A stretch of DNA of 64,000 nt from Escherichia phage SUT_E420. Shown one piece after another: positions 28,991 to 39,993 of the stretch (position 1 is the stretch's first letter; the number at the start of each line of letters is the position of its first letter). The position numbers and the translations under genes are program-made. Below the pieces are notes generated by a model. It was not told the origin of the DNA. It worked only from the letters and a program-made list of their open reading frames with translations, and did not search any database. The DNA is taken from sequence record OQ990039; one strand, given 5' to 3'.

Positions 28991-29242
28991 TCAGCCATTA
29001 GAGAGTACAGTACTGGTAGTTGGCAATACTACAGATGAAGCAACAGTGTTTAAATGCTTTCTCCAGTCTAGGTTAAATTGTTTTCGAAACTCTTCATAAG
29101 GTTCTTCTGGATAAAAGCTAAAACCTCCTTTCTCATCATTCAGGATAACAGAGCCGTCAGTTTGTTCGTATGCTCGGTATGTTTCTCCAATAACAATAAC
29201 TCGTTTTTCGGTACTTTTATTACGAAACTCAAAAACGTGCAT
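28991..29242 (-). CDS. hypothetical protein
   Basis: 83-aa ORF. Confidence 0.45.
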   Translation of the reverse strand: MHVFEFRNKSTEKRVIVIGETYRAYEQTDGSVILNDEKGGFSFYPEEPYEEFRKQFNLDWRKHLNTVASSVVLPTTSTVLSNG

Positions 29243-29258
29243 AATGTTTCCTTAAAGT

Positions 29259-29334
29259 TGGAGCGGCTAGAGGGAATCGAACCCTACTCAGCGAGGCTTG
29301 GAAGGCCTGCGGCACAACCCGTGTGCTTAACCGC
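29259..29334 (-). tRNA. tRNA-Gly (anticodon TCC)
   Basis: Acceptor GCGGTTA/TAGCCGC, anticodon loop CTTCCAA, T-loop TTCGATT, CCA encoded. Confidence 0.7.
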
Positions 29335-29342
29335 TTATTGTT

Positions 29343-29418
29343 TGGCTGGAGAAGGAGGAATCGAACCTACCATTAACGGAGTCAAAGGCCGTTGTGCTAA
29401 CCGTTACACTACTCTCCA
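29343..29418 (-). tRNA. tRNA-Gln (anticodon TTG)
   Basis: Acceptor TGGAGAG/TTCTCCA, anticodon loop CTTTGAC, CCA encoded. Confidence 0.65.
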
Positions 29419-29424
29419 ATTATT

Positions 29425-29500
29425 TGGCTGGGATGCCACGGATCGAACGTGGAACCTTCGGAGTCAGAGGCCGACGATCTGCCAATTGATCTACATCCCA
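29425..29500 (-). tRNA. tRNA-Gln (anticodon CTG)
   Basis: Perfect acceptor TGGGATG/CATCCCA, anticodon loop CTCTGAC, T-arm CCACG-TTCGATC-CGTGG. Confidence 0.65.
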
Positions 29501-29512
29501 ATAATTTTTATT

Positions 29513-29707
29513 CTACGGAAAAATTGTTGTTGGCTCAGATTCTTCCAAACGTTTGCCTTCATGATCAACACGAATAACGCCGCATCCTTCGCAAATCACA
29601 ACTGCACCATAACCTTCTTTGACCTCAGCTTCTGTAATCAAACCAGAAAGATCACCAGTATCTTTACCCCACATATCAATGGAGCATTGTTTGCAGAAAT
29701 CAGCCAT
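29513..29707 (-). CDS. small zinc-ribbon-like protein
   Basis: 64 aa with CxxC (CKQC) and CEGC pairs; sits between tRNA genes. Confidence 0.5.
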   Translation of the reverse strand: MADFCKQCSIDMWGKDTGDLSGLITEAEVKEGYGAVVICEGCGVIRVDHEGKRLEESEPTTIFP

Positions 29708-29732
29708 ATTTTATTTCCTATTTAAGTTAATT

Positions 29733-29809
29733 TGGGGTGGCTAGTGGAATTCGAATCCACATAGGCCTGATTCACAATCAGGATCATTAACCAATTATGA
29801 TATAGCCAC
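29733..29809 (-). tRNA. tRNA-His (anticodon GTG)
   Basis: Perfect acceptor GTGGCTA/TAGCCAC, anticodon stem CCTGA/TCAGG with loop TTGTGAA, CCA encoded. Confidence 0.75.
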
Positions 29810-30175
29810 AATTGAAAACTCGCAGGGTTAGCGAAACCTTCCTCAATTAGCATGTTCTAGAATACTAATCAAGTTATCTCCTATTGCACGCAGCTCAAGA
29901 CGAGTACGAATTTTCAATTGTGGCGGCTCTCAGAAACTCTTCTACTCTAGTCTTAGCAGCTTACTCCCGAACGCATGTCGGGGAAGTCTTACTAAGCGCA
30001 TCAAATAGCACCGTTACACTTTGAGCCATTGGTGTATCAAGAAGCAGAAGGACTTGAACCTTCACGAGATAGACCATTTATCTCAGCCGCTTTATGAGGT
30101 ATGTTGCAGGGAGTGGATGTTCCCTATAAACCTTTTAGGCAGCCCCGTCTACCGATTCCGGCATACTTCAGGATT

Positions 30176-30270
30176 TGGAGGTAGGTAAGGGGATCGAACC
30201 CTTACACCGTATCACTACGATCAACCGATTTCAAGTCGGAGTCCAGCGCCAGCCATTGGATTGACCTACC
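30176..30270 (-). tRNA. tRNA-Ser (anticodon TGA), class II
   Basis: 92 nt; perfect acceptor GGTAGGT/ACCTACC, anticodon loop CTTGAAA, long variable arm, CCA encoded. Confidence 0.75.
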
Positions 30271-30282
30271 ATATAAATTGTT

Positions 30283-30373
30283 TGGCGGAAGAGGAGAGAT
30301 TTGAACTCTCAAGCCGTTTTACCAGTCAGCCACTTTCCAAGCGGTTTTCGTCGCCAATTCGATTTGCTCTTCC
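30283..30373 (-). tRNA. tRNA-Ser (anticodon GGA), class II
   Basis: 88 nt; perfect acceptor GGAAGAG/CTCTTCC, anticodon loop TTGGAAA, T-arm GAGAG-TTCAAAT-CTCTC. Confidence 0.7.
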
Positions 30374-30485
30374 AATAATAAGATGATGCCTCTATCACAC
30401 CAGGCAGTTACGCCTCGCTGGGATTCGAACCCATTAAAACAGCTCAACCGAGATAGTAGGTTTAATTTACTCTGACCATCAAATT

Positions 30486-30562
30486 TGGTGCGTGACAAGG
30501 GATTCGAACCCTCAAAACCCGACTTCTAAGGACGGTATGTATGCCAATTCCATCAATCACGC
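30486..30562 (-). tRNA. tRNA, anticodon TAG (Leu-type anticodon on a 74-nt class I body)
   Basis: Acceptor GCGTGAT/GTCACGC, T-arm GAGGG-TTCGAAT-CCCTT; anticodon stem has one mismatch, so identity is tentative. Confidence 0.5.
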
Positions 30563-30567
30563 ATGTT

Positions 30568-30646
30568 TGGTGGAGAATAACGGAATCGAACCGTTCTGAT
30601 GTCCTCGGTGCAAGCGAGGTGTCCACTCCATGCAGACCCATTCCCC
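30568..30646 (-). tRNA. tRNA-Ala (anticodon TGC)
   Basis: Acceptor GGGGAAT/ATTCTCC, anticodon stem CCTCG/CGAGG with loop CTTGCAC, CCA encoded. Confidence 0.75.
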
Positions 30647-30884
30647 AAATTCTTTAGTTTACTAAGGCTATTAGCTCGGCGTAACTACAGCACCTTCGCT
30701 TCAAGCGGAAGGAACCGCGTCATCTCGCAAACCCGATACACTATTCAGTTGCCGCTGAACCTAGTGGACTAATCTAGAACTTCTCCCGAATCGTAGGGAT
30801 CGTGCTTTTTGGCAGCCAGTCCTAGGTCGAGCTAATACCTTAGTGAACTATGATGAGGATTTCTCCTCATCAATTTATATAAAT

Positions 30885-30913
30885 ATTATAACAAGAAATT
30901 AAGCATTAAGCAA
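30885..30913 (-). promoter_or_regulatory. T5-early-type promoter (-35 TTGCTT, -10 TATAAT) reading into tRNA cluster
   Basis: 17-bp spacer; no protein gene immediately downstream, only leader and tRNAs. Confidence 0.55.
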
Positions 30914-30931
30914 CTGCGTTTTTCTTGAAAT

Positions 30932-31010
30932 TGGTAGATCGCCTGGGACTCGAACCCAGAACCTTCCGATTAAAAGTCGGATGCTACTAAACCTATTGAG
31001 CTAGCGATCT
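30932..31010 (-). tRNA. tRNA-Lys (anticodon TTT)
   Basis: Perfect acceptor AGATCGC/GCGATCT, anticodon stem TCCGA/TCGGA with loop CTTTTAA, T-arm CTGGG-TTCGAGT-CCCAG. Confidence 0.8.
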
Positions 31011-31199
31011 ATTAGTAACCATTATACACTTCCTTAATAGAGTGGACTTTTAAGTAAGGGTGATTAGTACTAAACTCTACCATTACTTCATCCCAATTTT
31101 TACCATAATGAGCGAGTAAGGATTTTGATGTATTCTTACCTAACCGTTTGTCACTTACTACTAATCGAAATACTTTCATTTCGAAATCCTCTATTAAAA

Positions 31200-31277
31200 T
31201 GGAAGCGGGTGCAGGAATCGAACCTACCTCTTTCTAGCTTATGAGACTAGCGATCTCTACCAGAGATCTAACCCGCA
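31200..31277 (-). tRNA. tRNA, anticodon CAT (Met or Ile2)
   Basis: Anticodon stem CTAGT/GCTAG with loop CTCATAA; position 1-72 unpaired, which may indicate an initiator-like tRNA. Confidence 0.6.
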
Positions 31278-31283
31278 ATTGTT

Positions 31284-31359
31284 TGGTCAGTGCGGCAGGA
31301 CTCGAACCTGCGACCCGAAGCATCCAAGGCTCCCACGCTACCAACTGCGCTACGCACTG
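31284..31359 (-). tRNA. tRNA-Pro (anticodon TGG)
   Basis: Perfect acceptor CAGTGCG/CGCACTG, anticodon loop CTTGGAT, T-arm GCAGG-TTCGAGT-CCTGC. Confidence 0.75.
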
Positions 31360-31368
31360 TTAATTCTT

Positions 31369-31566
31369 TTATTGTGGAGGAATATTAATAATTCGTCCGT
31401 CTACACAATAAACGGTACTAGGAATTGTACTATATATGTAGAAATTCTTTATATTACTCTCTCCGCCACAGAAATTTTTAGCAAATTCATACTCTTTATT
31501 AATGGTTGAGTCAAGTTTAAAACAACCAGTAAGTAGGAATACAGACAGCAGTAAAACTTTTTTCAT
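31369..31566 (-). CDS. small lipoprotein
   Basis: 65 aa; signal peptide MKKVLLLSVFLLTGC with lipobox LTGC. Confidence 0.55.
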   Translation of the reverse strand: MKKVLLLSVFLLTGCFKLDSTINKEYEFAKNFCGGESNIKNFYIYSTIPSTVYCVDGRIINIPPQ

Positions 31567-31598
31567 TTTGCTTTCCTTCTCAACACTTTATAAGGTAT

Positions 31599-31627
31599 AT
31601 TATACAGAGAATTAAGCATAATAGCAA
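31599..31627 (-). promoter_or_regulatory. T5-early-type promoter (-35 TTGCTA, -10 TATAAT)
   Basis: 17-bp spacer; drives lipoprotein gene and downstream tRNAs. Confidence 0.6.
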
Positions 31628-32019
31628 ATGAATTTTTAATAAATTTACTTATTGTGTAGGCCACCTGGAGGCTACCAACCCCACGGCTGACAAAGAAGTT
31701 TGCGAGACCTCTCTTAAGTGCCAGAATAGACCCGCCGATCTATCGGAACCTACATAATAAGTAAACTTTATAGTGTCATTCTAGACAGGACTCGAACCTG
31801 TTATCACTTGTGCGGACTTACGAGAACCATTCTTTCACTCGAATCGAACGAGCTTCTGCCCTCGCCAAGCTGGTTTCCCCATCAACCACGCTAGAATGTT
31901 TGATTGTTTTCAGTGCAAGAGTCCGAGTCTTGGACACGACCGCTTCGCAAGTACATAGGCAGCTTATCATGAGTCAGCACTTCCGAATTGCTAGCTCCGT
32001 GTTCTGCACTGAAATTTTA

Positions 32020-32367
32020 TTAGTTTAACCGTAAAGTATTATCTACTTCACCCTTAATTGTTCGGCATTCTTCTGGGATTGCTGGTGTAGCCTTATATTC
32101 CCACCATTCAGAACCGTCGTATTCACCACGTTCTAACCAAGTTCCATCAGTAAACCACACGTTACCATAAAGCAATTGCCCACCGAAACCAGAATCATAT
32201 TTAAAGTCTAGATTATTTAGAAAATCTTCAATATCTTTTTCTGTATAACCTACGGGTAACACCCAAACTTCTTTGTCCCCATAATAACCGAATTCTATCT
32301 TAATACACTTAACTTCAGAATTAATATTCTTTAAGGCAAGTAACAATTCTTCTTTAGCATTAATCAT
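32020..32367 (-). CDS. hypothetical protein
   Basis: 115-aa ORF. Confidence 0.5.
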   Translation of the reverse strand: MINAKEELLLALKNINSEVKCIKIEFGYYGDKEVWVLPVGYTEKDIEDFLNNLDFKYDSGFGGQLLYGNVWFTDGTWLERGEYDGSEWWEYKATPAIPEECRTIKGEVDNTLRLN

Positions 32368-32393
32368 AGCATATTTCTCGTACTAGTTTAATT

Positions 32394-32470
32394 TGGCGCG
32401 ACCGATGGGATTTGAACCCACATTCCCTCCCGTGACAGGGGAGTACCATTACCAAGCCAGCCCCGGTCGC
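32394..32470 (-). tRNA. tRNA-Asp (anticodon GTC)
   Basis: Perfect acceptor GCGACCG/CGGTCGC, anticodon stem CTCCC/GGGAG with loop CTGTCAC, CCA encoded. Confidence 0.8.
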
Positions 32471-32479
32471 ATAATTCAT

Positions 32480-32665
32480 TTACTCAGCTTTGAGTTTTTC
32501 AATAGCTGCATTAAGTTCTTTAAGAAACTTTTTTCGTACATTAAGACGGTTGAGACTTACTAGTATATCATGTTTAAGTTCTTCGATGTATTTCTTCTCA
32601 ACTTCAATATTGTTGATAGTGCTATCACGATGAACTTCTAGCTGTGCAATTACATTCTTGGACAT
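32480..32665 (-). CDS. hypothetical coiled-coil protein
   Basis: 61-aa ORF. Confidence 0.4.
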   Translation of the reverse strand: MSKNVIAQLEVHRDSTINNIEVEKKYIEELKHDILVSLNRLNVRKKFLKELNAAIEKLKAE

Positions 32666-32767
32666 GCTTGTTTCCTCAGTTATTAATGAAAATGGTATCT
32701 GTGACTGAATTCGATGTCAGCAATGATAGCTGGTTGGCTACCGGTTTACTTAACTCTACACAGAATT

Positions 32768-32850
32768 TGGCGGGCCGTGTAGGATTCGAACCTACGTTGT
32801 CTTTCGACATGGATTAACAGTCCACCGCCAAACCGCTTGGCTAACGACCC
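32768..32850 (-). tRNA. tRNA-Asn (anticodon GTT), 80 nt with 13-nt variable region
   Basis: Acceptor GGGTCGT/ACGGCCC, D-stem GCCA/TGGC, anticodon loop CTGTTAA, T-arm GTAGG-TTCGAAT-CCTAC. Confidence 0.65.
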
Positions 32851-33002
32851 TAAATTTATATTGCTGACTAGGATTTTCACCTAGACGGAGTTAGCACCGT
32901 AGCGTGTAGCGGCATACCTCTCCAAACCGTGCCTCATCTTTCAATTACGGAGACAGTGTTCCTACGCGTGCCTGAATTGATTTAACAACTCTTTCAGCAA
33001 AT

Positions 33003-33078
33003 TGGACGACCGCATGAGATTTGAACTCACATAAAAAGGATTTGCAATCCTTCGCCTAAGCCATTCAGCCAACGGTCG
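33003..33078 (-). tRNA. tRNA-Cys (anticodon GCA)
   Basis: Acceptor CGACCGT/GCGGTCG, anticodon stem AAGGA/TCCTT with loop TTGCAAA, CCA encoded. Confidence 0.75.
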
Positions 33079-33126
33079 ATTTATCTTGTTCTGTCATGTT
33101 GCTTCTCCAGTTCAATTTATGTAATT

Positions 33127-33155
33127 ATTATACAGAACTTTTGGAAACTAAGCAA
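33127..33155 (-). promoter_or_regulatory. T5-early-type promoter (-35 TTGCTT, -10 TATAAT)
   Basis: 17-bp spacer; immediately upstream of tRNA-Cys. Confidence 0.6.
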
Positions 33156-33420
33156 CTACATTTTTTAAAAATTTGATGCCTTTCTTTTTCTTCTTATATT
33201 TCCACGTTAAGGGATTCTGTCGATTATGAACGCTTGAGATCTTTGTCTCGTCAAAGTTCTTCAATATCATGTAATCACAGGATAATTGTTCTAATGGAAT
33301 GTGATCACCGTCAAAAGCGTATACATAAGGCTGTTGACTAGCACGATAATGATAGACTTTGTTAATTCTACGTTTCAGCAACTTATCCGCGCAGTAAATA
33401 AAGAAGTTTTCAGGATGCAT
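33148..33420 (-). CDS. hypothetical protein
   Basis: ORF 33148-33435 trimmed to ATG at 33420 with GAGGGAG ribosome-binding site; C-terminus overlaps promoter. Confidence 0.45.
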   Translation of the reverse strand: MHPENFFIYCADKLLKRRINKVYHYRASQQPYVYAFDGDHIPLEQLSCDYMILKNFDETKISSVHNRQNPLTWKYKKKKKGIKFLKNVVA

Positions 33421-33437
33421 CAGCAGCTCCCTCAATT

Positions 33438-33512
33438 TGGTGCACCCTGTTCGTATCGAACGAACCTCTCAAGCTCTTCAGGCAAGCGCTAATCCATCTC
33501 AGCTAAAGGTGC
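33438..33512 (-). tRNA. tRNA, probable Phe (anticodon GAA)
   Basis: Acceptor GCACCTT/AGGGTGC, T-arm GTTCG-TTCGATA-CGAAC; anticodon loop CTGAAGA if stem tolerates two mismatches. Confidence 0.5.
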
Positions 33513-33518
33513 AAATTT

Positions 33519-33595
33519 TGGCAAACCTACTAGGACTCGAACCTAGACCGTACGGTTTTGGAGACCGACATGCTGTCCAGTAACACTCTAGGAAT
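33519..33595 (-). tRNA. tRNA-Trp (anticodon CCA)
   Basis: Anticodon stem CGGT/ACCG with loop CTCCAAA; perfect T-arm CTAGG-TTCGAGT-CCTAG; acceptor has two U-U mismatches. Confidence 0.55.
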
Positions 33596-33603
33596 GCAGG
33601 AAT

Positions 33604-33680
33604 TGGCGTCCTGTGCGGGGATCGAACCCGCAAATCCTACCTTGAAAGGGTAGTGACTTTACCAGTTTGTCTAACAGGAC
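33604..33680 (-). tRNA. tRNA-Glu (anticodon TTC)
   Basis: Perfect acceptor GTCCTGT/ACAGGAC, anticodon stem CTACC/GGTAG with loop CTTTCAA, T-arm GCGGG-TTCGATC-CCCGC. Confidence 0.8.
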
Positions 33681-33687
33681 TTAAATT

Positions 33688-33778
33688 TGGTGTTGGATGA
33701 TGGAGTCGAACCACCCGAGACCCTTCCGAGTCGGCAGATTTACAGTCTGCTTCGCTACCTCTACGATACTAATCCAAC
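33688..33778 (-). tRNA. tRNA-Tyr (anticodon GTA), class II
   Basis: 88 nt; perfect acceptor GTTGGAT/ATCCAAC, anticodon stem GCAGA/TCTGC with loop CTGTAAA, long variable arm. Confidence 0.8.
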
Positions 33779-33842
33779 ATATTTAAAAGTATTCAAATAC
33801 TAGTTTAAACACTTTTAGATATGTTTCCAAATTAGATAACTA

Positions 33843-33870
33843 TTATATCAAGTTTTATGGCACTGAGCAA
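33843..33870 (-). promoter_or_regulatory. candidate promoter (-35 TTGCTC, 16 bp, -10 TATAAT) upstream of tRNA-Tyr
   Basis: Overlaps hairpin CACTGAGCAAG/CTTGCTCAGTG that follows the upstream gene. Confidence 0.45.
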
Positions 33871-33906
33871 GTCAAATTTTAAAGAACTTGCTCAGTGCTG
33901 TATTAG

Positions 33907-34182
33907 TTAGTCGAACTTAGGAGCGACAGTTAAGGAGAATGGAAGTTCGAAAACTTCTTCGCCCTCATCACTAACAGTAATTACACGACCTTTAAGTTCA
34001 GACATTGAAATATCAATATCAGCTTTTGCATCTGGAGCCATGCCAGCTTCAATACATTTAGCTTTAACTTCCGGCAGAAGTTCTACATCGTAGAAATAAA
34101 GCCATTCAATCTCACCTTCCCAGCCTTCCCAGGATTTACAGATTGCACTTTCAATACCAGTTGCTATAACACGATTTTGCAT
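33907..34182 (-). CDS. hypothetical protein
   Basis: 91-aa ORF. Confidence 0.5.
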   Translation of the reverse strand: MQNRVIATGIESAICKSWEGWEGEIEWLYFYDVELLPEVKAKCIEAGMAPDAKADIDISMSELKGRVITVSDEGEEVFELPFSLTVAPKFD

Positions 34183-34212
34183 TCGTTAACTCCTTCATCA
34201 ATTTATATAACT

Positions 34213-34242
34213 ATTATACCAGAAATTTAAAGCAAAAGGCAA
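34213..34242 (-). promoter_or_regulatory. T5-early-type promoter (-35 TTGCCT, 18 bp, -10 TATAAT)
   Basis: Conserved leader TCATCAATTTATATAA on plus strand. Confidence 0.5.
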
Positions 34243-34272
34243 GTACATTTTTAAAAATTCTGTTTGGAGGAG

Positions 34273-34479
34273 CTAAACTCCAGATTCTTCAGCTAAGTCT
34301 AGGCTAATAAGAGATATAGCCATAATTGCTGCTCCGTGTTCTCTTTCTCCTGTCTCTTTAGCTAGGGTTATAATATCAAGAAATTGCTTATGAAAGTCTG
34401 CAACCTCTTGAGTCATACCTGCCTCAGCAATCATGCCTTTAAGCATGAAACGTTGTGCGGTAATTTCGGGATTAGCCAT
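34273..34479 (-). CDS. hypothetical protein
   Basis: 68-aa ORF. Confidence 0.45.
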   Translation of the reverse strand: MANPEITAQRFMLKGMIAEAGMTQEVADFHKQFLDIITLAKETGEREHGAAIMAISLISLDLAEESGV

Positions 34480-34654
34480 GTTGTTTCTCCAGTTTCATGT
34501 TTAATAGTCTACAAATAAAATCAATGTCTTCATCTGTGCCTAGATCTCTATCTTCAAGAGTTGCCTTGAAGTTTTTCGTCAATTCCATGAGGATAACTTC
34601 TCTAGAACGACGTGTTGGCGGAGGTGGATGTCTATACATCTTATTTCCTTAAGT

Positions 34655-34731
34655 TGGTAGGGGTGGTGGGATTCGAACCCACAAAACCTGAATTTTAAGT
34701 CCAGTACCTATACCAATTCGATTACACCCCC
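34655..34731 (-). tRNA. tRNA, anticodon TAA (Leu-type anticodon on a 74-nt class I body)
   Basis: Acceptor GGGGGTG/CACCCCT, anticodon stem CTGGA/TTCAG with loop CTTAAAA, T-arm GTGGG-TTCGAAT-CCCAC. Confidence 0.55.
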
Positions 34732-34832
34732 ATGTAATCAGTTTATTAGTTGATACATATTATAGCCTAGTGAAAATCCTACTACTAGTCCCACAAACCA
34801 ACCAATATAATAATCTTTTAGTTTCACAGGTA

Positions 34833-35018
34833 TTATCCTCGTTCAATATCTAGGGAAACACCGCAGTTAGGATTAATACCTGTACCGTTGCAATTTGAAC
34901 AAATCCAGATATTGCAAAAAGTATCTCCTGCTTCTGCATCAGAACTTTCACCAATTCCCCTACACTCAGGGCAGGCACATTCTTCTAGCTCTTGCTTGAG
35001 TTCTTGAAACTTGGACAT
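34833..35018 (-). CDS. Cys-rich small protein (zinc-binding-like)
   Basis: 61 aa; CACPECRG and CSNCNG motifs. Confidence 0.5.
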   Translation of the reverse strand: MSKFQELKQELEECACPECRGIGESSDAEAGDTFCNIWICSNCNGTGINPNCGVSLDIERG

Positions 35019-35027
35019 ATAGTCTCC

Positions 35028-35216
35028 TTAGTCAATTACTTTTGAGGCTTCAAGGGAGTCGATATAGTATACGTTTTCTACCATAATCATATAATCTGCC
35101 ACTTTATCCATAGCTTGGGCCTCAGAGGTAGCTCTGGCTAACCTATATCCTTTTTTATATTCATCCGGGTATTCTCTATCTTGAATAAATACAACATAAA
35201 CTATGTATAATTCCAC
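35028..35216 (-). CDS. hypothetical protein
   Basis: ORF 35028-35363 trimmed: N-terminal part overlaps two tRNA genes; GTG start after AGGGG ribosome-binding site. Confidence 0.4.
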   Translation of the reverse strand: MELYIVYVVFIQDREYPDEYKKGYRLARATSEAQAMDKVADYMIMVENVYYIDSLEASKVID

Positions 35217-35236
35217 TTGTAATCCCCTAATTAAGT

Positions 35237-35314
35237 TGGTGGCTCCCCGAGGATTCGAACCTACGTACCTTCCGGTTATGAGCCGGGTGCTCATACCATA
35301 TGAGCTTGAGAACC
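35237..35314 (-). tRNA. tRNA, anticodon CAT (Met or Ile2)
   Basis: Acceptor GGTTCTC/GGGAGCC with G-U pairs, D-stem GCTC/GAGC, anticodon loop CTCATAA. Confidence 0.55.
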
Positions 35315-35320
35315 AGAATT

Positions 35321-35409
35321 TGGCGGAAGAAGTGGGAATCGAACCCACAAGGCTATATTTCAAACCGACAGATTAGCAATCTGCTGCAATACCGTTATGC
35401 TATTCTTCC
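35321..35409 (-). tRNA. tRNA-Ser (anticodon GCT), class II
   Basis: 86 nt; perfect acceptor GGAAGAA/TTCTTCC, anticodon stem GCAGA/TCTGT with loop TTGCTAA, T-arm GTGGG-TTCGATT-CCCAC. Confidence 0.75.
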
Positions 35410-35430
35410 GAATTTATAAGATATATTATA

Positions 35431-35949
35431 TTAGAAATTTAGCTTCATAGCAAGAAAATTTTTCAAGTTTTCGGTAGACATCTCATCCACATCTACGGGA
35501 GAAACAAAGCCGTTTAATTTTCTAGCAAATTTTTCACCCGCAGGATCGTTGTCTCCGACAGCTACCAATTTAAAAGGTAATAATTTCAGTTGCTTTAATA
35601 ACGCTTTTCCTGGAGAAGAACCTAACATTGCCAGGGCTGGATAACCAGCGTTATGTAGCGCAACTGCCTTAAATACAGATTCAGCGATCAATACTACTTT
35701 TTCATCTCCATTGAGAGTTTCTAGTCCCCATACACACTGGGTAGTAGAATAAGTAAAATATTTAGCTTCAAAGGGACACTTACCATGACCTTTTGGAGCA
35801 GAAGGATTATACGTCTGATAGCCTCGCAACATCCCGGAGAAGTCATACAACGGGACTGTTAGCCATCCTTCCGGACTTAACCAGCAATGATATTTATCTG
35901 TATCAAATCCTCTGGATAAGAGGTGCTGTGTTAGCTCATCAACATTCAT
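35431..35949 (-). CDS. Toprim-domain protein
   Basis: ORF 35431-36000 trimmed to MNVDEL start with GAGAGG ribosome-binding site; VVLIAESVFKAVAL and GDNDPAG resemble the Toprim E and DxD motifs. Confidence 0.55.
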   Translation of the reverse strand: MNVDELTQHLLSRGFDTDKYHCWLSPEGWLTVPLYDFSGMLRGYQTYNPSAPKGHGKCPFEAKYFTYSTTQCVWGLETLNGDEKVVLIAESVFKAVALHNAGYPALAMLGSSPGKALLKQLKLLPFKLVAVGDNDPAGEKFARKLNGFVSPVDVDEMSTENLKNFLAMKLNF

Positions 35950-35979
35950 ATTTGGTTCCTCTCTCAAATTTATAGATAT

Positions 35980-36008
35980 ATTATACAGAGAATTTAGCAT
36001 TCAAGCAA
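35980..36008 (-). promoter_or_regulatory. T5-early-type promoter (-35 TTGCTT, -10 TATAAT)
   Basis: 17-bp spacer, conserved leader. Confidence 0.6.
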
Positions 36009-36124
36009 TCAAATTTTTTAACTTTTTAGAGGAAAATCATAGGGCACTTAAGGGTAGCAGATAAGTGGGGAGGACCAAAATTTGTGACCCCACTAAAAAT
36101 CCGGGGGCAATTTTTAAAGACCCC

Positions 36125-36153
36125 TTGACATTTTCGCTGGGGTAGTGTAAAGT
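36125..36153 (+). promoter_or_regulatory. sigma70-type promoter (-35 TTGACA, 17 bp, -10 TAAAGT)
   Basis: Consensus -35, starts the only plus-strand operon inside the minus-strand block. Confidence 0.55.
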
Positions 36154-36215
36154 ATATGTTATGGATGAGTGATCAAAGAGACACACATTTTCTATATACT
36201 AGGAGGTGTCAAAAT

Positions 36216-37205
36216 ATGACAGAAGAAGTAGCTAAGAGTCCTGAGACCGTCGCTAGCGTTGCAGCAGAACTGCACCGTCACGAGGAATCAGATAAGAAAA
36301 AGTGGGAGAAGGTCAGAGCCTACGAAGAAAAACATCGTGAACACGATGATGAAGAAGAAGATGACGATGATGAACATTGTCATAAATATGGAAAACATAA
36401 AATGCAAGAACCAGTAAACGTATTCACTAGTGGCTTCCCTGGCCTACTGGGTGGTTACCCAGCAAACGCAGGTGCTTTCGGTGGTGAAGGTATGGGACTA
36501 TTCGGAGCTATCCTAATCGGTGCTCTATTAACCGGCGGATTCGGTGGTTTCGGTGGATTCGGTGGACGTGGTGTAGTTGGTGAAGGTACCGCAGTTGATG
36601 CAGTACTTCAGAACCAAGATACCGCTAGTATTCTAGCAGCTATCAACACTACTCGTACAGAGGCTAACCAGGGTACTGGAGCTGTTTTAAGCGCAGTTAA
36701 CAATGGTTTTAGCCAGACAACCCAAAACCAGAGCCGTGATACTCAGTCTGTACTAACTACGATCTACGGTACAGGTGCTAATCTGTCTAATCAGATCTGC
36801 CAGGAAACTCGCAACGTTATTCAGGGTCAGTTCGATCTTTCTCGCCAGATTGATCAATCTTTCGCAGCTAACCAGATAGCTCGTGCACAAGATAAGTTTG
36901 ATTCTGCACAGATCGCTTTCCAGCAGACTTTACAAACTAATAACCAGTTTGCCGCTGTTCAGGCTCAGATGTGTGCTAACCAGAACTCTCTGGAACGTCA
37001 GATCGCTGAATGTTGCTGTGAACTTCAGACTGCGATCGCTGGTGTAACTACTGCGCGTATCCAGGATGAGTTAGACGCATGTCGCCTACGTGAAGCAATC
37101 GCTGCGGGTAGCGGTGCTAACGGTCAGGTAATTAATCAAATCGCTTTAAGTCTTGGTGCTATCACTCAGACTCTGGCTGGTCTGCAGGCTAAACTGCCGG
37201 CTTAA
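36216..37205 (+). CDS. glycine-zipper membrane protein with acidic N-terminus and Q/N/T-rich C-terminal half
   Basis: ORF 36156-37205 trimmed to MTEEVAK start after AGGAGG; DDEEEDDDDEH run, GxxxG-rich hydrophobic GMGLFGAILIGALLTGGFGGFGGFGG, low-complexity tail, C-terminal CCC. Confidence 0.55.
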   Translation: MTEEVAKSPETVASVAAELHRHEESDKKKWEKVRAYEEKHREHDDEEEDDDDEHCHKYGKHKMQEPVNVFTSGFPGLLGGYPANAGAFGGEGMGLFGAILIGALLTGGFGGFGGFGGRGVVGEGTAVDAVLQNQDTASILAAINTTRTEANQGTGAVLSAVNNGFSQTTQNQSRDTQSVLTTIYGTGANLSNQICQETRNVIQGQFDLSRQIDQSFAANQIARAQDKFDSAQIAFQQTLQTNNQFAAVQAQMCANQNSLERQIAECCCELQTAIAGVTTARIQDELDACRLREAIAAGSGANGQVINQIALSLGAITQTLAGLQAKLPA

Positions 37206-37226
37206 TATTAAGGGGAGGAGCCCATT

Positions 37227-37643
37227 ATGAGTAAATATGGTTTTGTAAATAACGGACTTAATCAAAGTATGGGCTCCCAGCAGCCCATTCCGGGTCTGGA
37301 TAACCCCTACTTACAACAGTTGCAACAGCGTTTAGCAGAAGCGCAACAGATGCAGCAACAACTCCAGCAAAACCCTGGAAGTGTGAGTCCTATGCAAATG
37401 ATGCAGCAAATGAGCGGGCAGTCGCAAATGCCTCAACAAATGCAGCAACAGGTGCCTCAGCAGCAAGTTCAGCAACAAACCCAACAACCGCAGGTTTCTG
37501 CGGAAGGACAGGCAGTACTAGCCCTTTTCGAAGACTTCGCAAAGACAGAGGATGGGAAACAGCTTGTATCACTTATGGGTAAGTTTAATAGCTTCTGCCA
37601 AAGCCAAGTTGCAAAAGCTCAAAATGGGGGTAGTAACTCCTAA
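37227..37643 (+). CDS. glutamine-rich low-complexity protein
   Basis: 138 aa, about one third Gln (QQLQQ, QQMQQQ repeats); GGAGG ribosome-binding site. Confidence 0.5.
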   Translation: MSKYGFVNNGLNQSMGSQQPIPGLDNPYLQQLQQRLAEAQQMQQQLQQNPGSVSPMQMMQQMSGQSQMPQQMQQQVPQQQVQQQTQQPQVSAEGQAVLALFEDFAKTEDGKQLVSLMGKFNSFCQSQVAKAQNGGSNS

Positions 37644-37652
37644 GGAGGAAAT

Positions 37653-37847
37653 ATGTGTTGCAGAAAATCTGTTTCGTGCTGCCCAGTGCCTGTAGCACGT
37701 TGTTGCTCTCCAGCAATGTTTACGCAAATACCGGCGTTCAATCCCTTTGCCTTTAAGCCTACTCTTATCCTGCCCCCTAGAGTAGATTTTCAGTCAAGAT
37801 TGGCCTCCCGTATGGGTGGTTGCTGTACACCGAGAGTATGGTTCTAA
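37653..37847 (+). CDS. Cys-rich small protein
   Basis: 64 aa with MCC, SCC, RCC and GGCC Cys pairs; AGGAGG ribosome-binding site. Confidence 0.45.
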   Translation: MCCRKSVSCCPVPVARCCSPAMFTQIPAFNPFAFKPTLILPPRVDFQSRLASRMGGCCTPRVWF

Positions 37848-37859
37848 ACCAAAAACAAA

Positions 37860-37894
37860 AGCCCCTGCCGAAAGGTAAGGGGCTTTTTCTTTTG
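37860..37894 (+). terminator. rho-independent terminator of plus-strand cassette
   Basis: Stem AGCCCCT/AGGGGCT followed by TTTTTCTTTTG; second copy after the N-gap is an artefact. Confidence 0.8.
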
Positions 37895-38071
37895 CCTTAA
37901 ATACAGAAAANNNNNNNNNNNNNNNNNNNNNNNNNNNNNNNNNNNNNNNNNNNNNNNNNNNNNNNNNNNNNNNNNNNNNNNNNNNNNNNNNNNNNNNNNN
38001 NNNNNNNNNNGAGTATGGTTCTAAACCAAAAACAAAAGCCCCTGCCGAAAGGTAAGGGGCTTTTTCTTTTG

Positions 38072-38115
38072 CCTTAAATACAGAAAAGCCCGCGCTCTCG
38101 TAGGAAACGCGGGCT
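38072..38115 (-). terminator. rho-independent terminator after SPFH gene
   Basis: Stem AGCCCGCG/CGCGGGCT, then TTTTCTGTATTT on the minus strand; convergent with the plus-strand terminator. Confidence 0.7.
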
Positions 38116-38139
38116 TGGTTCGAAGATTACGTGTAACTA

Positions 38140-39087
38140 TTACTTGTTACGCATATCCATGATCATTTGACCATCGTAGCCAGTACCTACCACAGTCTGA
38201 GGTACACCACCTTGATACTTCTGAGCACGGATCATTTCAACTTCCAGTTGTTTCCAACGAATCATTTCAGGAGTAATGGTACGTTGCAATGCGGCGTTAG
38301 CTTCAGCTTCTTTCTTAGCTGCGTACAGTTTAGCATCTGCGTCACGTTCATTAGCAATAGCTTGGTTGTTACGAGCTTCACGATCTGCTTCTGCTTGTTT
38401 AACTTTTTGCTGTGCTTCCTGTTCAACGCGAGCAAGTTCAGCTTTCGCAGCATTAACTTGCTCTTCACGAACTTTGGTATTCTGTACCTGTTCCATGATT
38501 ACTGGCGGCAAGGTAATATCCTGAAGGAATACCTGCTTAACTGTGTAACCATATGGGCGCGCATACTCTTCAACTTCCTGTTGAATTGCAGTTTGCAATT
38601 GAGCCTGAATTTTAGCATCAAATAAATCTTGTGCTTTAGGTACAGACTTACCAAACTCACGAATAGTAGACAGTAATTTTTCAGTTACATACTTGTCTAG
38701 TGCCTGATCCTGAGTACCTGCGTTAATACGGTTAATCGGTGCTTTAGAACCATCAAACTGCAACATAACAGTCAGGTCAACAGTGGATTTAAACTTATCC
38801 TGGCTAGGAACCTGAAGTTTATCTAATTTTACAGCAATATCTTTTGTACTAAAAGTATCGAAAGATGCAAACGGGTTTACAAGATGGAAGCCCGGCAATA
38901 CTGGATTAGGGTCTACTTTACCCAGGAATGTTTGGGTTTTAACCGTACCATCAGAAACAATAGTATATGAATTAAAAGCTAGGATTAAACCTGCTAAACC
39001 AACTACAGCACCAATACCCCAACGTTTAATAGTACGAATTACTTTCTGCTCAGAAGTCAGTTCTTTCATATTTTTAGTAGCAAACAT
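38140..39087 (-). CDS. SPFH/band-7 (stomatin/prohibitin/HflK-C-like) membrane protein
   Basis: 315 aa; N-terminal TM WGIGAVVGLAGLILAF, band-7-like core, long Ala/Gln/Glu-rich coiled coil. Confidence 0.65.
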   Translation of the reverse strand: MFATKNMKELTSEQKVIRTIKRWGIGAVVGLAGLILAFNSYTIVSDGTVKTQTFLGKVDPNPVLPGFHLVNPFASFDTFSTKDIAVKLDKLQVPSQDKFKSTVDLTVMLQFDGSKAPINRINAGTQDQALDKYVTEKLLSTIREFGKSVPKAQDLFDAKIQAQLQTAIQQEVEEYARPYGYTVKQVFLQDITLPPVIMEQVQNTKVREEQVNAAKAELARVEQEAQQKVKQAEADREARNNQAIANERDADAKLYAAKKEAEANAALQRTITPEMIRWKQLEVEMIRAQKYQGGVPQTVVGTGYDGQMIMDMRNK

Positions 39088-39196: not shown

Positions 39197-39993
39197 TTTA
39201 AGTATTTTTAAGAACTCTCGTAAAAACTCTTAAAAATACAGACGATACCGGGAGAGTCATAAGTCTCACTCATTAAGTATTTCAAGACAAAATACAGTAA
39301 CGTCTATTATTTTCCAGTTTAAGTCAGGGTGACTTAGTGGTTATGTCCTGCGGTATATTGAGGACTCGGTTAGGCTTGGGGTCATGACTTCCCACCTTTT
39401 GCTGCTACTCAACAGGAGTTATCGCGAATTACCTGTGCTATTGTGCACCATTAGTGACATCTCTCATGTCAGCATTTCCCACTTTGTGGATAGCTTGAAA
39501 AACTACTCCGATATGGAGAAAGAACTTCACTATCCTAGAATACCTTCTAAAGTTCTTCTTTAGCCTGGACATAGTTAAATCGTAATAAAACTATTCAGCA
39601 GACTGGTTGGTTAGTCTGGAACCAACTACCGCGTGGTTTAGGCAGTGCGCAACTAACCTCGGAAGCTTTTATGTTAAAAGCATCAGTTATCCAGTTCTTA
39701 CCGACCGTAGGATTCGAACCTACATCTTCCACCAGTTACGGCTTGATAATACCAATTATACTAGGACGGCAGTGTTACTACATAAGTGATTTCCACACCC
39801 CACTATTTATAAATCAGAGAAGAGTTTAGGGGAGAGGTTTCAGACGCCTCATTTTACACGTTCTAGCCACTAACCGGGATTGCCGCCCCCTGTGTACTAG
39901 TTTTACAACTAACCCACCGACTCTATTCAATGCGCTCCGGTTGGGATTCTGCACTCAGCGTAATCGGCTCGCTGTTCCCTAATTTATGAATAT

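What the first reader, a model, noticed from the sequence alone, without database searches (positions are those of the whole stretch)
30036..31897. tRNA-like elements that do not fold as complete tRNAs
Canonical T-arm sequences without a matching acceptor stem occur at about 30036-30125 (AAGG-TTCAAGT-CCTT) and about 30405-30480 (TGGG-TTCGAAT-CCCA). A 120-nt element at 31778-31897 has a perfect 7-bp acceptor pairing (ATTCTAG/CTAGAAT) enclosing two T-arm-like hairpins, too long for a tRNA unless it carries an insertion. These could be pseudo-tRNAs, processing signals or other small stable RNAs.
Basis: seen in the sequence. Interest (0 to 1): 0.5.

Follow-up and report, generated by a model that had tools for sequence, protein, structure and literature searches.

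The report
Phage T5 tRNA-like stable RNAs
Two of the three flagged elements are the long-known but still unexplained "tRNA-like stable RNAs" RNA1 and RNA2 of phage T5, each a tRNA cloverleaf whose anticodon loop is replaced by a conserved structured insert. The third is an unannotated, conserved structured spacer at the site where T5 itself carries a homing-endonuclease gene.

Summary
The window is a T5-like phage, 100% identical over the query to Escherichia phage SUT_E1520. All three elements lie on the minus strand inside its tRNA gene cluster.

- **Element 1** is part of RNA1 (30028-30171).
- **Element 3** is RNA2 (31774-31898). Both are annotated in T5 record AY543070 as "tRNA-like stable RNA with unknown functions".
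- **Detection:** Default ARAGORN and Rfam do not call them.
- **Structure:** Covariation strongly supports full cloverleaves plus structured inserts. For RNA2, 27 of 34 pairs show compensatory changes. For RNA1, 12 of 36 do.
- **RNA1:** It has a tRNA-Leu-like class II body.
- **RNA2:** Its insert holds a second T-loop hairpin. The family also occurs in T4-like Acinetobacter phages and in environmental contigs.
- **3' ends:** Neither RNA has the encoded NCCA that all 26 tRNAs here have.
- **Element 2** (30374-30485) is unannotated everywhere I looked. It is syntenic and structurally conserved in Tequintavirus and Klebsiella Sugarlandvirus, and T5 has hegC in its place.

My reading is that these are non-decoding, tRNA-scaffolded RNAs whose inserts bind an unknown partner. 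That mechanism is inferred, not shown. Function remains unknown. The main entities are already known.

The parts
30028..30171 (-). RNA1: the 144-nt tRNA-like stable RNA, ortholog of T5 rna1.
   Evidence: blastn to the AY543070 rna1 feature gives 85.5% identity. ARAGORN -i calls 30039-30170 as a tRNA with a 41-nt intron. CM R2 scores it 172 bits.
30164..30169 (-). RNA1 acceptor stem, 5' strand GAAGUA. It pairs with UGCUUC at 30041-30046.
   Evidence: 5 of 6 pairs show compensatory changes (helix 1). Coordinates verified.
30145..30161 (-). RNA1 D arm CCG-GAAUCGGUAGA-CGG, of the class II tRNA-Leu type.
   Evidence: 100% paired, but with no informative variation (helix 2). The next-best R2 hits are tRNA-Leu genes at 22-43 bits.
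30091..30138 (-). RNA1 insert (48 nt) in place of the anticodon loop, closed by the 6-bp stem GGCUGC/GCGGCU (30139-30144 with 30085-30090). The apical hairpin at 30107-30126 carries the invariant loop sequence GAACAUCCACUC.
   Evidence: Helices 3-5 have 6 compensatory pairs. The loop is invariant in all 15 aligned sequences.
30066..30084 (-). RNA1 long variable arm GAGAUA-AAUGGUC-UAUCUC.
   Evidence: 100% paired, with one A-U to U-A swap (helix 6).
30047..30063 (-). RNA1 T arm GAAGG-UUCAAGU-CCUUC.
   Evidence: The stem is invariant across relatives (helix 7).
30028..30040 (-). RNA1 3' trailer UUGAUACACCAAU. There is no NCCA directly after the acceptor, and it abuts the 5' end of RNAI.
   Evidence: The ACACCA is not conserved; relatives have AUAUCA or AUUCAA.
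30176..30270 (-). tRNA-Ser(UGA), class II, ending in an encoded CCA. It lies between elements 1 and 2.
   Evidence: Annotated as tRNA-Ser in LR597659 and PV577657. ARAGORN finds it at lowered threshold. The Rfam tRNA-Sec model gives 37.6 bits.
30283..30373 (-). tRNA-Ser(GGA), class II, ending in an encoded CCA.
   Evidence: Annotated as tRNA-Ser in LR597659. It is identical in most relatives to tRNAS2 of phage 5. Cloverleaf fold.
30374..30485 (-). Element 2 ('EL2'): an unannotated 112-nt structured spacer between tRNA-Leu(UAG) and tRNA-Ser(GGA).

- Outer stem: GAUGGU (30475-30480) with AUCAUC (30382-30387).
- P2: CCUACUAUC (30452-30460) with GAUAGAGG (30389-30396).
- T-arm-like hairpin: 30419-30433.
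- Third hairpin: 30402-30415.
   Evidence: It is 97-100% identical in many tequintaviruses. It is syntenic in Klebsiella Sugarlandvirus and in L071. There are 6 compensatory pairs and no broken pair in P2, the T-like hairpin or H3. It is not annotated in AJ604531, and T5 has hegC at this site.
31774..31898 (-).
   Evidence: blastn to the AY543070 rna2 feature gives 96.8% identity. CM R1 scores it 150 bits. ARAGORN -i -ps90 calls it a tRNA with a 48-nt insertion.
31891..31898 (-). RNA2 acceptor stem, 5' strand CAUUCUAG. It pairs with CUAGAAUG at 31777-31784 and is followed by the tail ACA, not CCA.
   Evidence: All 8 pairs show compensatory changes (helix 1). Tail.
31871..31888 (-). RNA2 D arm UGGUU-GAUGGGGA-AACCA, a 5-bp stem with a GG-containing loop.
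   Evidence: All 5 pairs are compensatory (helix 2).
31811..31865 (-). RNA2 insert (55 nt) enclosed by the 5-bp anticodon-type stem GCUUG/CAAGU (31866-31870 with 31806-31810). It contains GGGY/RUCC and GA/UC pairings, a second T-loop hairpin (31837-31853), an invariant GG in the linker, and the conserved sequence CUCGUAANUCCGCA.
   Evidence: Helices 3-6. Invariant columns. The insert is more conserved than the body.
31785..31801 (-). RNA2 T arm ACAGG-UUCGAGU-CCUGU.
   Evidence: 3 of 5 pairs are compensatory (helix 7).

Best explanation
Elements 1 and 3 are the T5-family genes rna1 and rna2. They are tRNA-derived, non-decoding stable RNAs, co-transcribed with the phage tRNAs.

**Anatomy (shown).** Each keeps a complete tRNA body: acceptor stem, D arm, anticodon-type stem and T arm with a canonical T loop. 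RNA1 also has a class II variable arm and a tRNA-Leu-like D arm. In both, the 7-nt anticodon loop is replaced by a conserved structured insert of about 48-55 nt.

**How it probably works (inferred).** The tRNA body acts as a scaffold. It lets RNase P and the 3'-trimming enzymes cut the RNA out of the polycistronic transcript, as they do for its tRNA neighbours, and it makes the product stable. This is the same logic as the engineered "tRNA scaffold" used for recombinant RNAs. The insert is the working part.

- In RNA1 it is a long hairpin with an invariant apical loop, ACAUCCAC.
- In RNA2 it is a second T-loop hairpin plus an invariant GG and CUCGUAANUCCGCA. This could form a second tRNA-elbow-like module.

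With no anticodon loop and no conserved NCCA end, the RNAs are not expected to be charged or to decode.

**Likely role (speculative).** They may bind in trans to a host or phage factor that recognises tRNA shape. The tRNA-rich region of T5-like phages is now known to be an anti-defence island, so one candidate role is as a decoy or inhibitor of tRNA-directed host nucleases or enzymes.

**Element 2.** It is a third RNA structure of the same neighbourhood: a long closing stem around three hairpins, one of them T-arm-like. It occupies the slot between tRNA-Leu and tRNA-Ser, and is either a stable RNA or a processing element.
For: **Identity.** The window is 100% identical over the query to phage SUT_E1520, a Tequintavirus. 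The features map onto T5 misc_RNAs annotated "tRNA-like stable RNA with unknown functions", and the same annotation appears in phage 5 record AJ604531.

**tRNA body.**
- Ordinary tRNAs score 25-35 bits against the RNA2 model, with the insert deleted.
- tRNA-Leu genes are the next-best hits of the RNA1 model.

**Structure under selection.**
- RNA2: 97.6% of cells paired, 27 of 34 pairs with compensatory changes, 0 of 500 shuffles as high, slid controls 28-45%.
- RNA1, on a plain MAFFT alignment: 97.6% paired, 12 compensatory pairs, slid controls 39-50%.
- EL2: 6 compensatory pairs and none broken in P2, the T-like hairpin or the third hairpin.

**The insert matters.** In RNA2 it is more conserved than the body, 89% against 83%. 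Its core survives in relatives whose acceptor and D stems are completely different.

**tRNA-like placement.** In Epseptimavirus, My1 and Klebsiella phages, RNA2 sits 5-7 nt from flanking tRNAs.

**Non-decoding.** All 26 tRNAs in the window encode NCCA. RNA1 and RNA2 do not, and CCA is sporadic among homologs.

**Spread.** The RNA2 family occurs in Demerecviridae, T4-like Acinetobacter phages (Acj9 at 83.6 bits) and environmental contigs. It has no real match in 185,579 bacterial genomes.

**Context.** The T5 tRNA region counters PARIS and retron Eco7 (PMC11464382, PMC11555353).
Against: - No experiment or tool result here shows a binding partner, a trans effect or an anti-defence role.
- The published screens of the tRNA-rich region assigned the PARIS and retron phenotypes to tRNA-Lys, tRNA-Tyr and ORF75, not to these RNAs.
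- T5 deletion mutants lacking RNA1 (del 29191-32442) or RNA2 (del 30661-38625) are viable in the laboratory, so any function is conditional.
- T5 itself lacks EL2.
- "Stable RNA" rests on a GenBank annotation. I could not read the primary papers, so the mature ends and abundance are unverified.
- Three of the four pairs of the GGGY/RUCC helix in RNA2 never vary, so that helix is weakly supported.
- The "second elbow" is inferred from an invariant GG and a T loop, not tested.
- RNase P processing is inferred from shape only.
Confidence: 0.6

Rival explanations
1. They act only in cis as processing punctuation. The tRNA-like folds recruit RNase P or RNase E to separate neighbouring RNAs and mRNAs in the long early transcripts, as mitochondrial t-elements and mascRNA-type signals do. 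On this view the excised pieces have no function of their own.
For: - They are embedded in polycistronic tRNA/ORF units and abut other stable RNAs without spacers. The RNA1 3' end touches the RNAI 5' end, and the RNAIII 3' end touches the tRNA-His 5' end.
- EL2 fills a tRNA-tRNA spacer and begins with the same AAUU that follows every CCA.
- Deletions are tolerated.
Against: - Neighbouring tRNAs already provide RNase P sites every 5-10 nt, so an extra 125-144-nt element is not needed for cutting.
- A pure cleavage signal would not need invariant insert sequences, such as GAACAUCCACUC or CUCGUAANUCCGCA, kept across phage families while the acceptor stems change completely.
- The T5 annotation says they accumulate as stable RNAs.
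Confidence: 0.15
2. They are intron-containing pre-tRNAs. The 41-48-nt inserts are removed and the exons joined to give working tRNAs, which ARAGORN proposes as Phe(AAA) and Arg(CCG).
For: ARAGORN in intron mode reports exactly this. UCCGCA just before the 3' strand of the RNA2 stem is nearly invariant and could be read as U33-CCG-C37-A38.
Against: - The inserts are far too short for the self-splicing group I introns known in bacterial and phage tRNA genes.
- To my knowledge no protein tRNA-splicing endonuclease is known in E. coli or T5.
- The proposed RNA2 intron sits between positions 32 and 33 and leaves C at position 37.
- The T5 variant of RNA1 has G in place of U33.
- Acinetobacter versions have UCCAUA instead of UCCGCA.
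- There is no encoded CCA, unlike all 26 tRNAs here.
- RNA2's insert is more conserved than its "exons".
- T5 annotates full-length 144- and 125-nt stable species.
Confidence: 0.04
3. They are decaying pseudo-tRNAs: former tRNA genes disrupted by small insertions and rearrangements, driven by the homing endonucleases of this region. On this view they persist by hitch-hiking without function.
For: - The region is a hotspot of HNH homing endonucleases and cassette replacement. T5 has hegC where EL2 sits, and the Ser and Leu genes differ between T5 and this phage.
- Some records annotate neighbouring genes as pseudo-tRNAs.
- The deletions are viable.
Against: - Compensatory base changes maintain every helix, including those inside the inserts.
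- Homologs persist in distinct phage families and environments with the insert core intact.
- Neutral decay would not preserve this.
Confidence: 0.05

Closest known systems
Bacteriophage T5 RNA1 and RNA2 (genes rna1 and rna2; GenBank AY543070 and AJ604531, Ksenzenko laboratory annotation)
   Same: They are the same genes. The position in the tRNA cluster, the strand and the neighbours all match. Identity is 85.5% for RNA1 and 96.8% for RNA2, and the annotated lengths of 144 and 125 nt fit.
   Different: This phage carries the commoner RNA1 allele, about 85% identical to T5's. It also lacks the small ORF T5.063 found next to RNA1 in T5. The annotation gives no structure, family range or function; the covariation and distribution data here add those.
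Bacteriophage T4 species 1 and species 2 RNAs (rnaC, rnaD)
   Same: They are small stable RNAs encoded at the end of a phage tRNA cluster and processed with the tRNAs. Their function is still unknown (PMC3014915, PMC9697503). rnaC folds with a closing stem, a canonical T arm, a long side hairpin and a long extended arm, much like RNA1.
   Different: There is no detectable sequence homology. The RNA2 model gives rnaC only 19.4 bits, less than ordinary tRNAs get, and the RNA1 model finds nothing. rnaD shows no T arm in its predicted fold.
Engineered tRNA scaffold for recombinant RNA (Ponchon and Dardel 2007; from my own knowledge)
   Same: A foreign structured RNA replaces the anticodon loop of a tRNA. 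The chimera is processed and protected like a tRNA in E. coli. RNA1 and RNA2 have exactly this architecture.
   Different: That system is artificial. Here the design is natural and conserved, and the payload's target is unknown. Processing of RNA1 and RNA2 by the tRNA machinery is inferred, not shown here.
Canonical tRNA (Rfam RF00005), including class II tRNA-Leu
   Same: They share the acceptor, D, anticodon-type and T stems, the T-loop sequence UUCRANU and GG in the D loop. RNA1 has the GGUAGA D loop and long variable arm typical of tRNA-Leu.
   Different: The anticodon loop is replaced by a 48-55-nt structure and there is no encoded NCCA. Rfam scores are below threshold.
tmRNA and bacterial Y-RNA-like YrlA (other tRNA mimics)
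   Same: They are RNAs that combine a tRNA-like module with a non-tRNA functional domain.
   Different: ARAGORN's tmRNA search and Rfam find nothing here. tmRNA lacks a D stem and carries an ORF and pseudoknots. In YrlA the RNA ends lie in the Ro-binding stem, not in the acceptor (from my own knowledge). RNA2's CUCGUAAGUCCGCA resembles E. coli tmRNA's CCUCGUAAAAAGCCGCA, but I noted that only from memory and treat it as coincidence.

Membership tests
T5 rna1 / rna2 stable RNA genes | Sequence homology to the annotated T5 features over their full length | tested here: met
   blastn gives RNA1 positions 1-137 of 144 at 85.5% and RNA2 positions 1-125 of 125 at 96.8%. The CMs score them 172 and 150 bits.
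T5 rna1 / rna2 stable RNA genes | Same position and strand in the tRNA cluster: tRNA-Ser1 > RNA1 > RNAI > RNAIII > tRNA-His, and the T5.067 ORF > RNA2 > RNAIV > P13a | tested here: met
   The order of mapped features is identical.
T5 rna1 / rna2 stable RNA genes | Accumulation as discrete stable RNAs in infected cells | not testable with these tools
   This rests only on the depositors' annotation "stable RNA". The primary papers are not in the held library.
Canonical tRNA (RF00005) | Cloverleaf with acceptor, D, anticodon and T stems and a T loop | tested here: met
   The covariation counts support all four stems in both RNAs.
Canonical tRNA (RF00005) | 7-nt anticodon loop with U33 and a purine at position 37 | tested here: not met
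   The loop is replaced by 48 nt in RNA1 and 55 nt in RNA2.
Canonical tRNA (RF00005) | Score at or above Rfam's gathering threshold of 29 bits | tested here: not met
   There is no hit for RNA1 or EL2. RNA2 gets an 18-bit partial hit.
Canonical tRNA (RF00005) | NCCA 3' end, encoded in every tRNA of this cluster | tested here: not met
   All 26 tRNAs end in NCCA. RNA1 continues UUGAUACACCAAU and RNA2 continues ACA.
Intron-containing tRNA (group I type, as in bacteria and phages) | Intron of 200 nt or more with the group I core, inserted in the anticodon loop | tested here: not met
   The inserts are 41-55 nt, and there is no Rfam intron hit.
tmRNA | tRNA-like domain plus a tag reading frame and pseudoknots, detected by ARAGORN or Rfam | tested here: not met
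   ARAGORN finds no tmRNA. The only Rfam hit is a 16-bit chance match to tmRNA_permuted elsewhere in the window.
T4 rnaC / rnaD | Sequence or profile homology to the T4 RNAs | tested here: not met
   R1 gives rnaC 19.4 bits, below ordinary tRNAs, and R2 finds nothing.

The most novel reading that the evidence does not exclude
The T5 tRNA-rich region may encode a set of tRNA-scaffolded effector RNAs rather than leftovers.

- RNA2 would define a cross-family phage RNA class, found in T5-like phages, T4-like Acinetobacter phages and uncultured phages. Its insert would build a second tRNA elbow.
- RNA1 would display an invariant 8-nt loop on a tRNA-Leu body.
- The unannotated EL2 would be a third member.

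On this reading they act in trans as decoys or inhibitors of host factors that recognise tRNA shape, such as anticodon nucleases of defence systems or tRNA-modifying and processing enzymes. That would make them RNA-based anti-defence genes.
Probability: 0.2. Interest if true: 0.8.

Novelty: already known. Interest (0 to 1): 0.38.

Why it matters
RNA1 and RNA2 of T5 are annotated as stable RNAs of unknown function in the T5 record. The analogous T4 RNAs C and D were still without a known role in 2010 and 2022.

The tRNA-rich region of T5-like phages has recently been shown to defeat PARIS and retron defences through individual tRNAs and an ORF. The conserved non-tRNA RNAs in the same region are therefore obvious next candidates.

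This work adds testable anatomy:
- covariation-supported structures for both RNAs;
- evidence that the insert is the selected part in RNA2;
- the absence of an encoded CCA;
- a family range for RNA2 that crosses phage families;
- a further conserved structured element (EL2) that the curated annotations miss.

It also shows that many genome records place hypothetical ORFs over these RNAs.

Tried and rejected
1. **Rfam.** I ran it at gathering threshold and at E<=10, on both large and small windows. It has no family for RNA1, RNA2 or EL2. The only results were sub-threshold tRNA/tRNA-Sec hits for RNA2 and the two tRNA-Ser genes.
2. **Antisense targets.** I searched the window for sites complementary to the invariant RNA1 loop and to RNA2's single-stranded core. 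Only the genes' own opposite strands matched at 10 nt or more.
3. **Bacterial homologs.** A genome-contig scan for the RNA2 insert motif gave 2 hits, about the number I estimated by chance. Neither looks tRNA-like.
4. **Distant phages.** Loci that share the neighbouring T5.067-like protein (L028-L038) contain no RNA1 or RNA2 homolog.
5. **Homology to T4 rnaC/rnaD.** None was detectable.
6. **Literature.** Six full-text searches found no paper in the held library that describes T5 RNA1 or RNA2. They are documented only in the GenBank records.
7. **EL2 model.** MAFFT misaligned its 5' half twice, so I counted pairs on a hand-segmented alignment and did not build a third covariance model.
8. **tmRNA PK1 resemblance.** The similarity I recalled from memory between RNA2's CUCGUAAGUCCGCA and tmRNA is set aside as coincidence. 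The idea of a tRNA-Arg(CCG) mimic is also set aside, because the UCC may be paired with GGG and Acinetobacter versions read UCCAUA.
9. **Single-sequence folding.** The z-scores are unremarkable (-1.3 for RNA2, -2.0 for RNA1, -0.2 for EL2). The support for structure comes from covariation, not from folding energy.


Full report
**Where we are.** Bases 29800-32400 of the window are 100% identical to Escherichia phage SUT_E1520 and 99.6% identical to other tequintaviruses, which are T5-like Demerecviridae. ARAGORN finds 21 tRNA genes and Rfam finds 22, all on the minus strand between 27.6 and 39.8 kb. The finding therefore lies inside the phage's tRNA gene cluster and has to be read on the minus strand.

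**Checking the observation.** The three T-arm motifs exist where stated.
- RNA1: GAAGG-UUCAAGU-CCUUC at 30047-30063.
- Element 2: UGGG-UUCGAAU-CCCA at 30419-30433.
- RNA2: ACAGG-UUCGAGU-CCUGU at 31785-31801, plus an internal GCUCG-UUCGAUU-CGAGU at 31837-31853.

The T-loop core GTTCRANNC occurs 33 times against 11.5 +/- 2.9 expected, and most occurrences lie on the minus strand in the cluster.

The acceptor pairing of the 120-nt element is real and is 8 bp long. The statement that element 1 has no acceptor stem is wrong.

Default ARAGORN and Rfam do not call any of the three. With a small search space Rfam gives only an 18-bit partial tRNA hit for RNA2, and nothing for RNA1 or element 2.

**What two of them are.** The T5 record AY543070 annotates several misc_RNAs in this region as well as tRNAs. 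Mapping those features to the window by blastn gives:

| T5 feature | Window coordinates |
|---|---|
| RNAIII | 29811-29916 |
| RNAI | 29921-30027 |
| RNA1, "tRNA-like stable RNA with unknown functions" | 30028 to about 30171 (85.5% identity) |
| RNA2H | 30666-30837 |
| RNAIV | 31653-31755 |
| RNA2, "tRNA-like stable RNA with unknown functions" | 31774-31898 (96.8% identity) |
| RNA3 | 32693-32765 |
| RNAX | 39197-39826 |

The phage 5 record AJ604531 carries the same annotation. Element 1 is therefore part of RNA1, and element 3 is RNA2. Most other genome records leave these stretches blank or place hypothetical ORFs over them.

Between elements 1 and 2 lie two class II tRNA-Ser genes, at 30176-30270 and 30283-30373. 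Default tools miss them, but some records annotate them and ARAGORN recovers one of them at lower stringency.

**Anatomy of RNA2.** With introns allowed and a lowered threshold, ARAGORN calls 31777-31897 a tRNA with a 48-nt insertion.

I collected homologs from the following sources:
- Tequintavirus and Epseptimavirus;
- Pectobacterium phage My1;
- Serratia phage Kamaji;
- Klebsiella Sugarlandvirus;
- an Acinetobacter phage;
- metagenomic contigs.

I built a covariance model from them and realigned 30 distinct sequences. On that alignment:
- 97.6% of cells form standard pairs, against 80.4% in shuffles;
- 27 of 34 pairs show compensatory changes;
- no shuffle out of 500 reaches the observed values;
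- sliding the partners by 1-3 columns drops pairing to 28-45%.

The alignment was fitted to the model, which favours the structure. However, RNAalifold on the plain MAFFT alignment recovers the same acceptor, D, anticodon-type and T stems independently.

The structure has these parts:
- an 8-bp acceptor;
- a 5-bp D stem with a GG-containing loop;
- a 5-bp anticodon-type stem;
- a 5-nt variable loop;
- a 5-bp T stem with loop UUCGAGU;
- a 55-nt insert inside the anticodon-type stem.

The insert contains a GGGY/RUCC pairing (only its fourth pair covaries), a short GA/UC pairing and a second hairpin with a T-loop sequence, whose stem covaries at 4 of 5 pairs. It also has a linker with an invariant GG, and the nearly invariant sequence CUCGUAANUCCGCA.

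Insert columns are more conserved than body columns, 89% against 83%. Ordinary tRNAs score 25-35 bits against this model with the insert skipped, while true homologs score 88-151 bits.

On a MAFFT alignment of 15 distinct sequences, not fitted to any structure, the proposed cloverleaf-plus-insert structure is 97.6% paired. It has 12 compensatory pairs, and slid controls give 39-50%.

The D arm CCG-GAAUCGGUAGA-CGG and the variable arm are of the class II type. After true homologs at 134-176 bits, the RNA1 model's best hits are tRNA-Leu genes at 22-43 bits.

The 48-nt insert is a two-step hairpin whose apical sequence GAACAUCCACUC is invariant in all 15 sequences. RNA1 homologs occur in Markadamsvirinae, in Klebsiella Sugarlandvirus and in one further viral genome. 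I did not find them in My1, Kamaji or the Acinetobacter phages.

**Not chargeable as encoded.** All 26 tRNAs of the window, and RNA3, end in an encoded NCCA followed by an A/U-rich stretch. RNA1 instead continues UUGAUACACCAAU after its acceptor, and RNA2 continues ACA. Among homologs a CCA appears only sporadically, in one Klebsiella phage and one metagenomic contig.

**Element 2.** The 112 nt between tRNA-Leu(UAG) and tRNA-Ser(GGA) have no counterpart in T5, which carries the HNH endonuclease gene hegC at that site. The stretch is not annotated even in the detailed phage 5 record.

It is 97-100% identical in many tequintaviruses. It also occupies the same slot, after tRNA-Leu(UAG) and before a tRNA-Ser, in Klebsiella Sugarlandvirus at about 81% identity. 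A third variant occurs in another viral genome.

On a hand-segmented alignment of 9 distinct sequences, RNAalifold gives a two-part closing stem around three hairpins, the middle one being the T-arm-like hairpin. Six pairs change on both sides and remain paired, and no pair is broken in P2, the T-like hairpin or the third hairpin.

So element 2 is a real, selected RNA structure, but not a canonical cloverleaf. Its T-loop-like sequence sits in the middle hairpin. Whether it accumulates as an RNA is unknown.

**Distribution.**
- BLAST finds RNA2 in 484 phage records and RNA1 in 492.
- The RNA2 family also occurs in T4-like Acinetobacter phages of the Straboviridae: Acj9, ZZ1, Henu6, 133 and AB1I1M-1. 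In Acj9 it follows tRNA-Gly directly and scores 83.6 bits.
- It occurs in environmental contigs with quite different acceptor stems.
- A scan of one genome per bacterial and archaeal species found only two matches that do not look tRNA-like, about the number I estimated by chance.
- In Epseptimavirus, My1 and Klebsiella phages, RNA2 sits 5-7 nt from flanking tRNAs, as tRNAs do.

**Interpretation.**

*Shown:*
- these are orthologs of T5 rna1 and rna2;
- they are complete tRNA bodies with structured inserts;
- all their helices are maintained by selection;
- they lack an anticodon loop and an encoded CCA.

*Inferred:*
- the tRNA body serves for excision by RNase P and 3' trimming, and for stability, as in the engineered tRNA scaffold;
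- the insert is the functional module.

*Speculative:* they may act in trans on a factor that recognises tRNA shape, possibly in anti-defence.

The speculative step draws on context. The tRNA-rich region of T5-like phages counters PARIS through tRNA-Lys, and retrons through tRNA-Tyr and ORF75 (PMC11464382, PMC11555353). Those studies did not implicate RNA1 or RNA2, however. Deletion mutants that remove RNA1 or RNA2 are viable in the laboratory.

**Rivals.**
- *Cis-only processing signals.* This is possible, but it does not explain invariant insert sequences kept across phage families.
- *Spliced intron-containing tRNAs.* This is unlikely. The inserts are too short for group I introns. The junctions would be non-canonical (G instead of U33 in the T5 allele of RNA1, C at position 37 in RNA2). 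There is no CCA, RNA2's insert is more conserved than its exons, and T5 annotates full-length stable species.
- *Decaying pseudogenes.* This is contradicted by the covariation.

**Comparison with known systems.** The closest known entities are the T5 RNAs themselves. By analogy, T4 species 1 and 2 RNAs (rnaC, rnaD) are also close. They too sit at the end of a tRNA cluster and still have no known role.

T4 rnaC folds with a T arm and extended arms, but it is not detectably homologous. No Rfam family covers any of these RNAs.

**Verdict.** The entities are already known, though their function is not. What is new here:
- the covariation-supported structures;
- the cross-family range of RNA2;
- the systematic absence of CCA;
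- the unannotated structured element at 30374-30485.

Noticed in passing
window 29811-30027 (minus strand): Two further T5 stable RNAs of unknown function, RNAIII and RNAI, follow RNA1 with no spacer or a spacer of only 4 nt. RNAI (29921-30027) is closed by GGCUC/GAGCC and ends in GCCA, a tRNA-like discriminator plus CCA. RNAIII has a 12-bp closing stem and abuts the 5' end of tRNA-His. Neither has an Rfam match.
   Followed up: partly
window 31899-32019 (minus strand): The 121-nt gap between the stop of the T5.067-like ORF and RNA2 is unannotated in T5. It folds with an 11-bp closing stem, UUUCAGUGCAG.../...UGCACUGAAA (z-score -1.8). It could be one more structured RNA of the cluster.
   Followed up: no
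window 30176-30270 and 30283-30373 (minus strand): Two class II tRNA-Ser genes (anticodons UGA and GGA) are missed by default ARAGORN and fall below Rfam's tRNA threshold. Several records, including that of the identical phage SUT_E1520, therefore lack them. This phage's Ser(UGA) gene is also strongly diverged from T5's, with only 84% identity over 43 nt.
   Followed up: partly
window 30486-30562 (minus strand), against T5 31624-31708: tRNA-Leu(UAG) is only 77 nt here, with a 4-nt variable loop, whereas T5's tRNALeu1 is annotated as 85 nt. blastn finds no match between the two. This tRNA-Leu, and tRNA-Ser2 on the other side of the EL2/hegC site, both differ from T5's versions. That fits cassette exchange driven by the homing endonuclease.
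   Followed up: no
window 32693-32765 (minus strand): RNA3, annotated "putative tRNA-like RNA" in T5, is 73 nt long with a 6-bp acceptor-like stem and an encoded ACCA end. Its T arm is degenerate. Its single-sequence fold is unusually stable (z-score -2.9).
   Followed up: no
L103 2501-2731 (Acinetobacter phage Acj9), L043 4938-5090, L044 4912-5082, L002 585-1473: Many genome records annotate "hypothetical protein" ORFs across RNA1, RNA2 or EL2, on either strand. Given the RNA covariation, these are probably mis-annotations.
   Followed up: no
window 29259-29334, 35237-35314, 39698-39771 (minus strand): Three more tRNA-type genes are missed by default ARAGORN. They correspond to T5's tRNA-Gly(UCC), its tRNA-Ile2(CAU), and a pseudo-tRNA inside RNAX that lacks CCA.
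   Followed up: no
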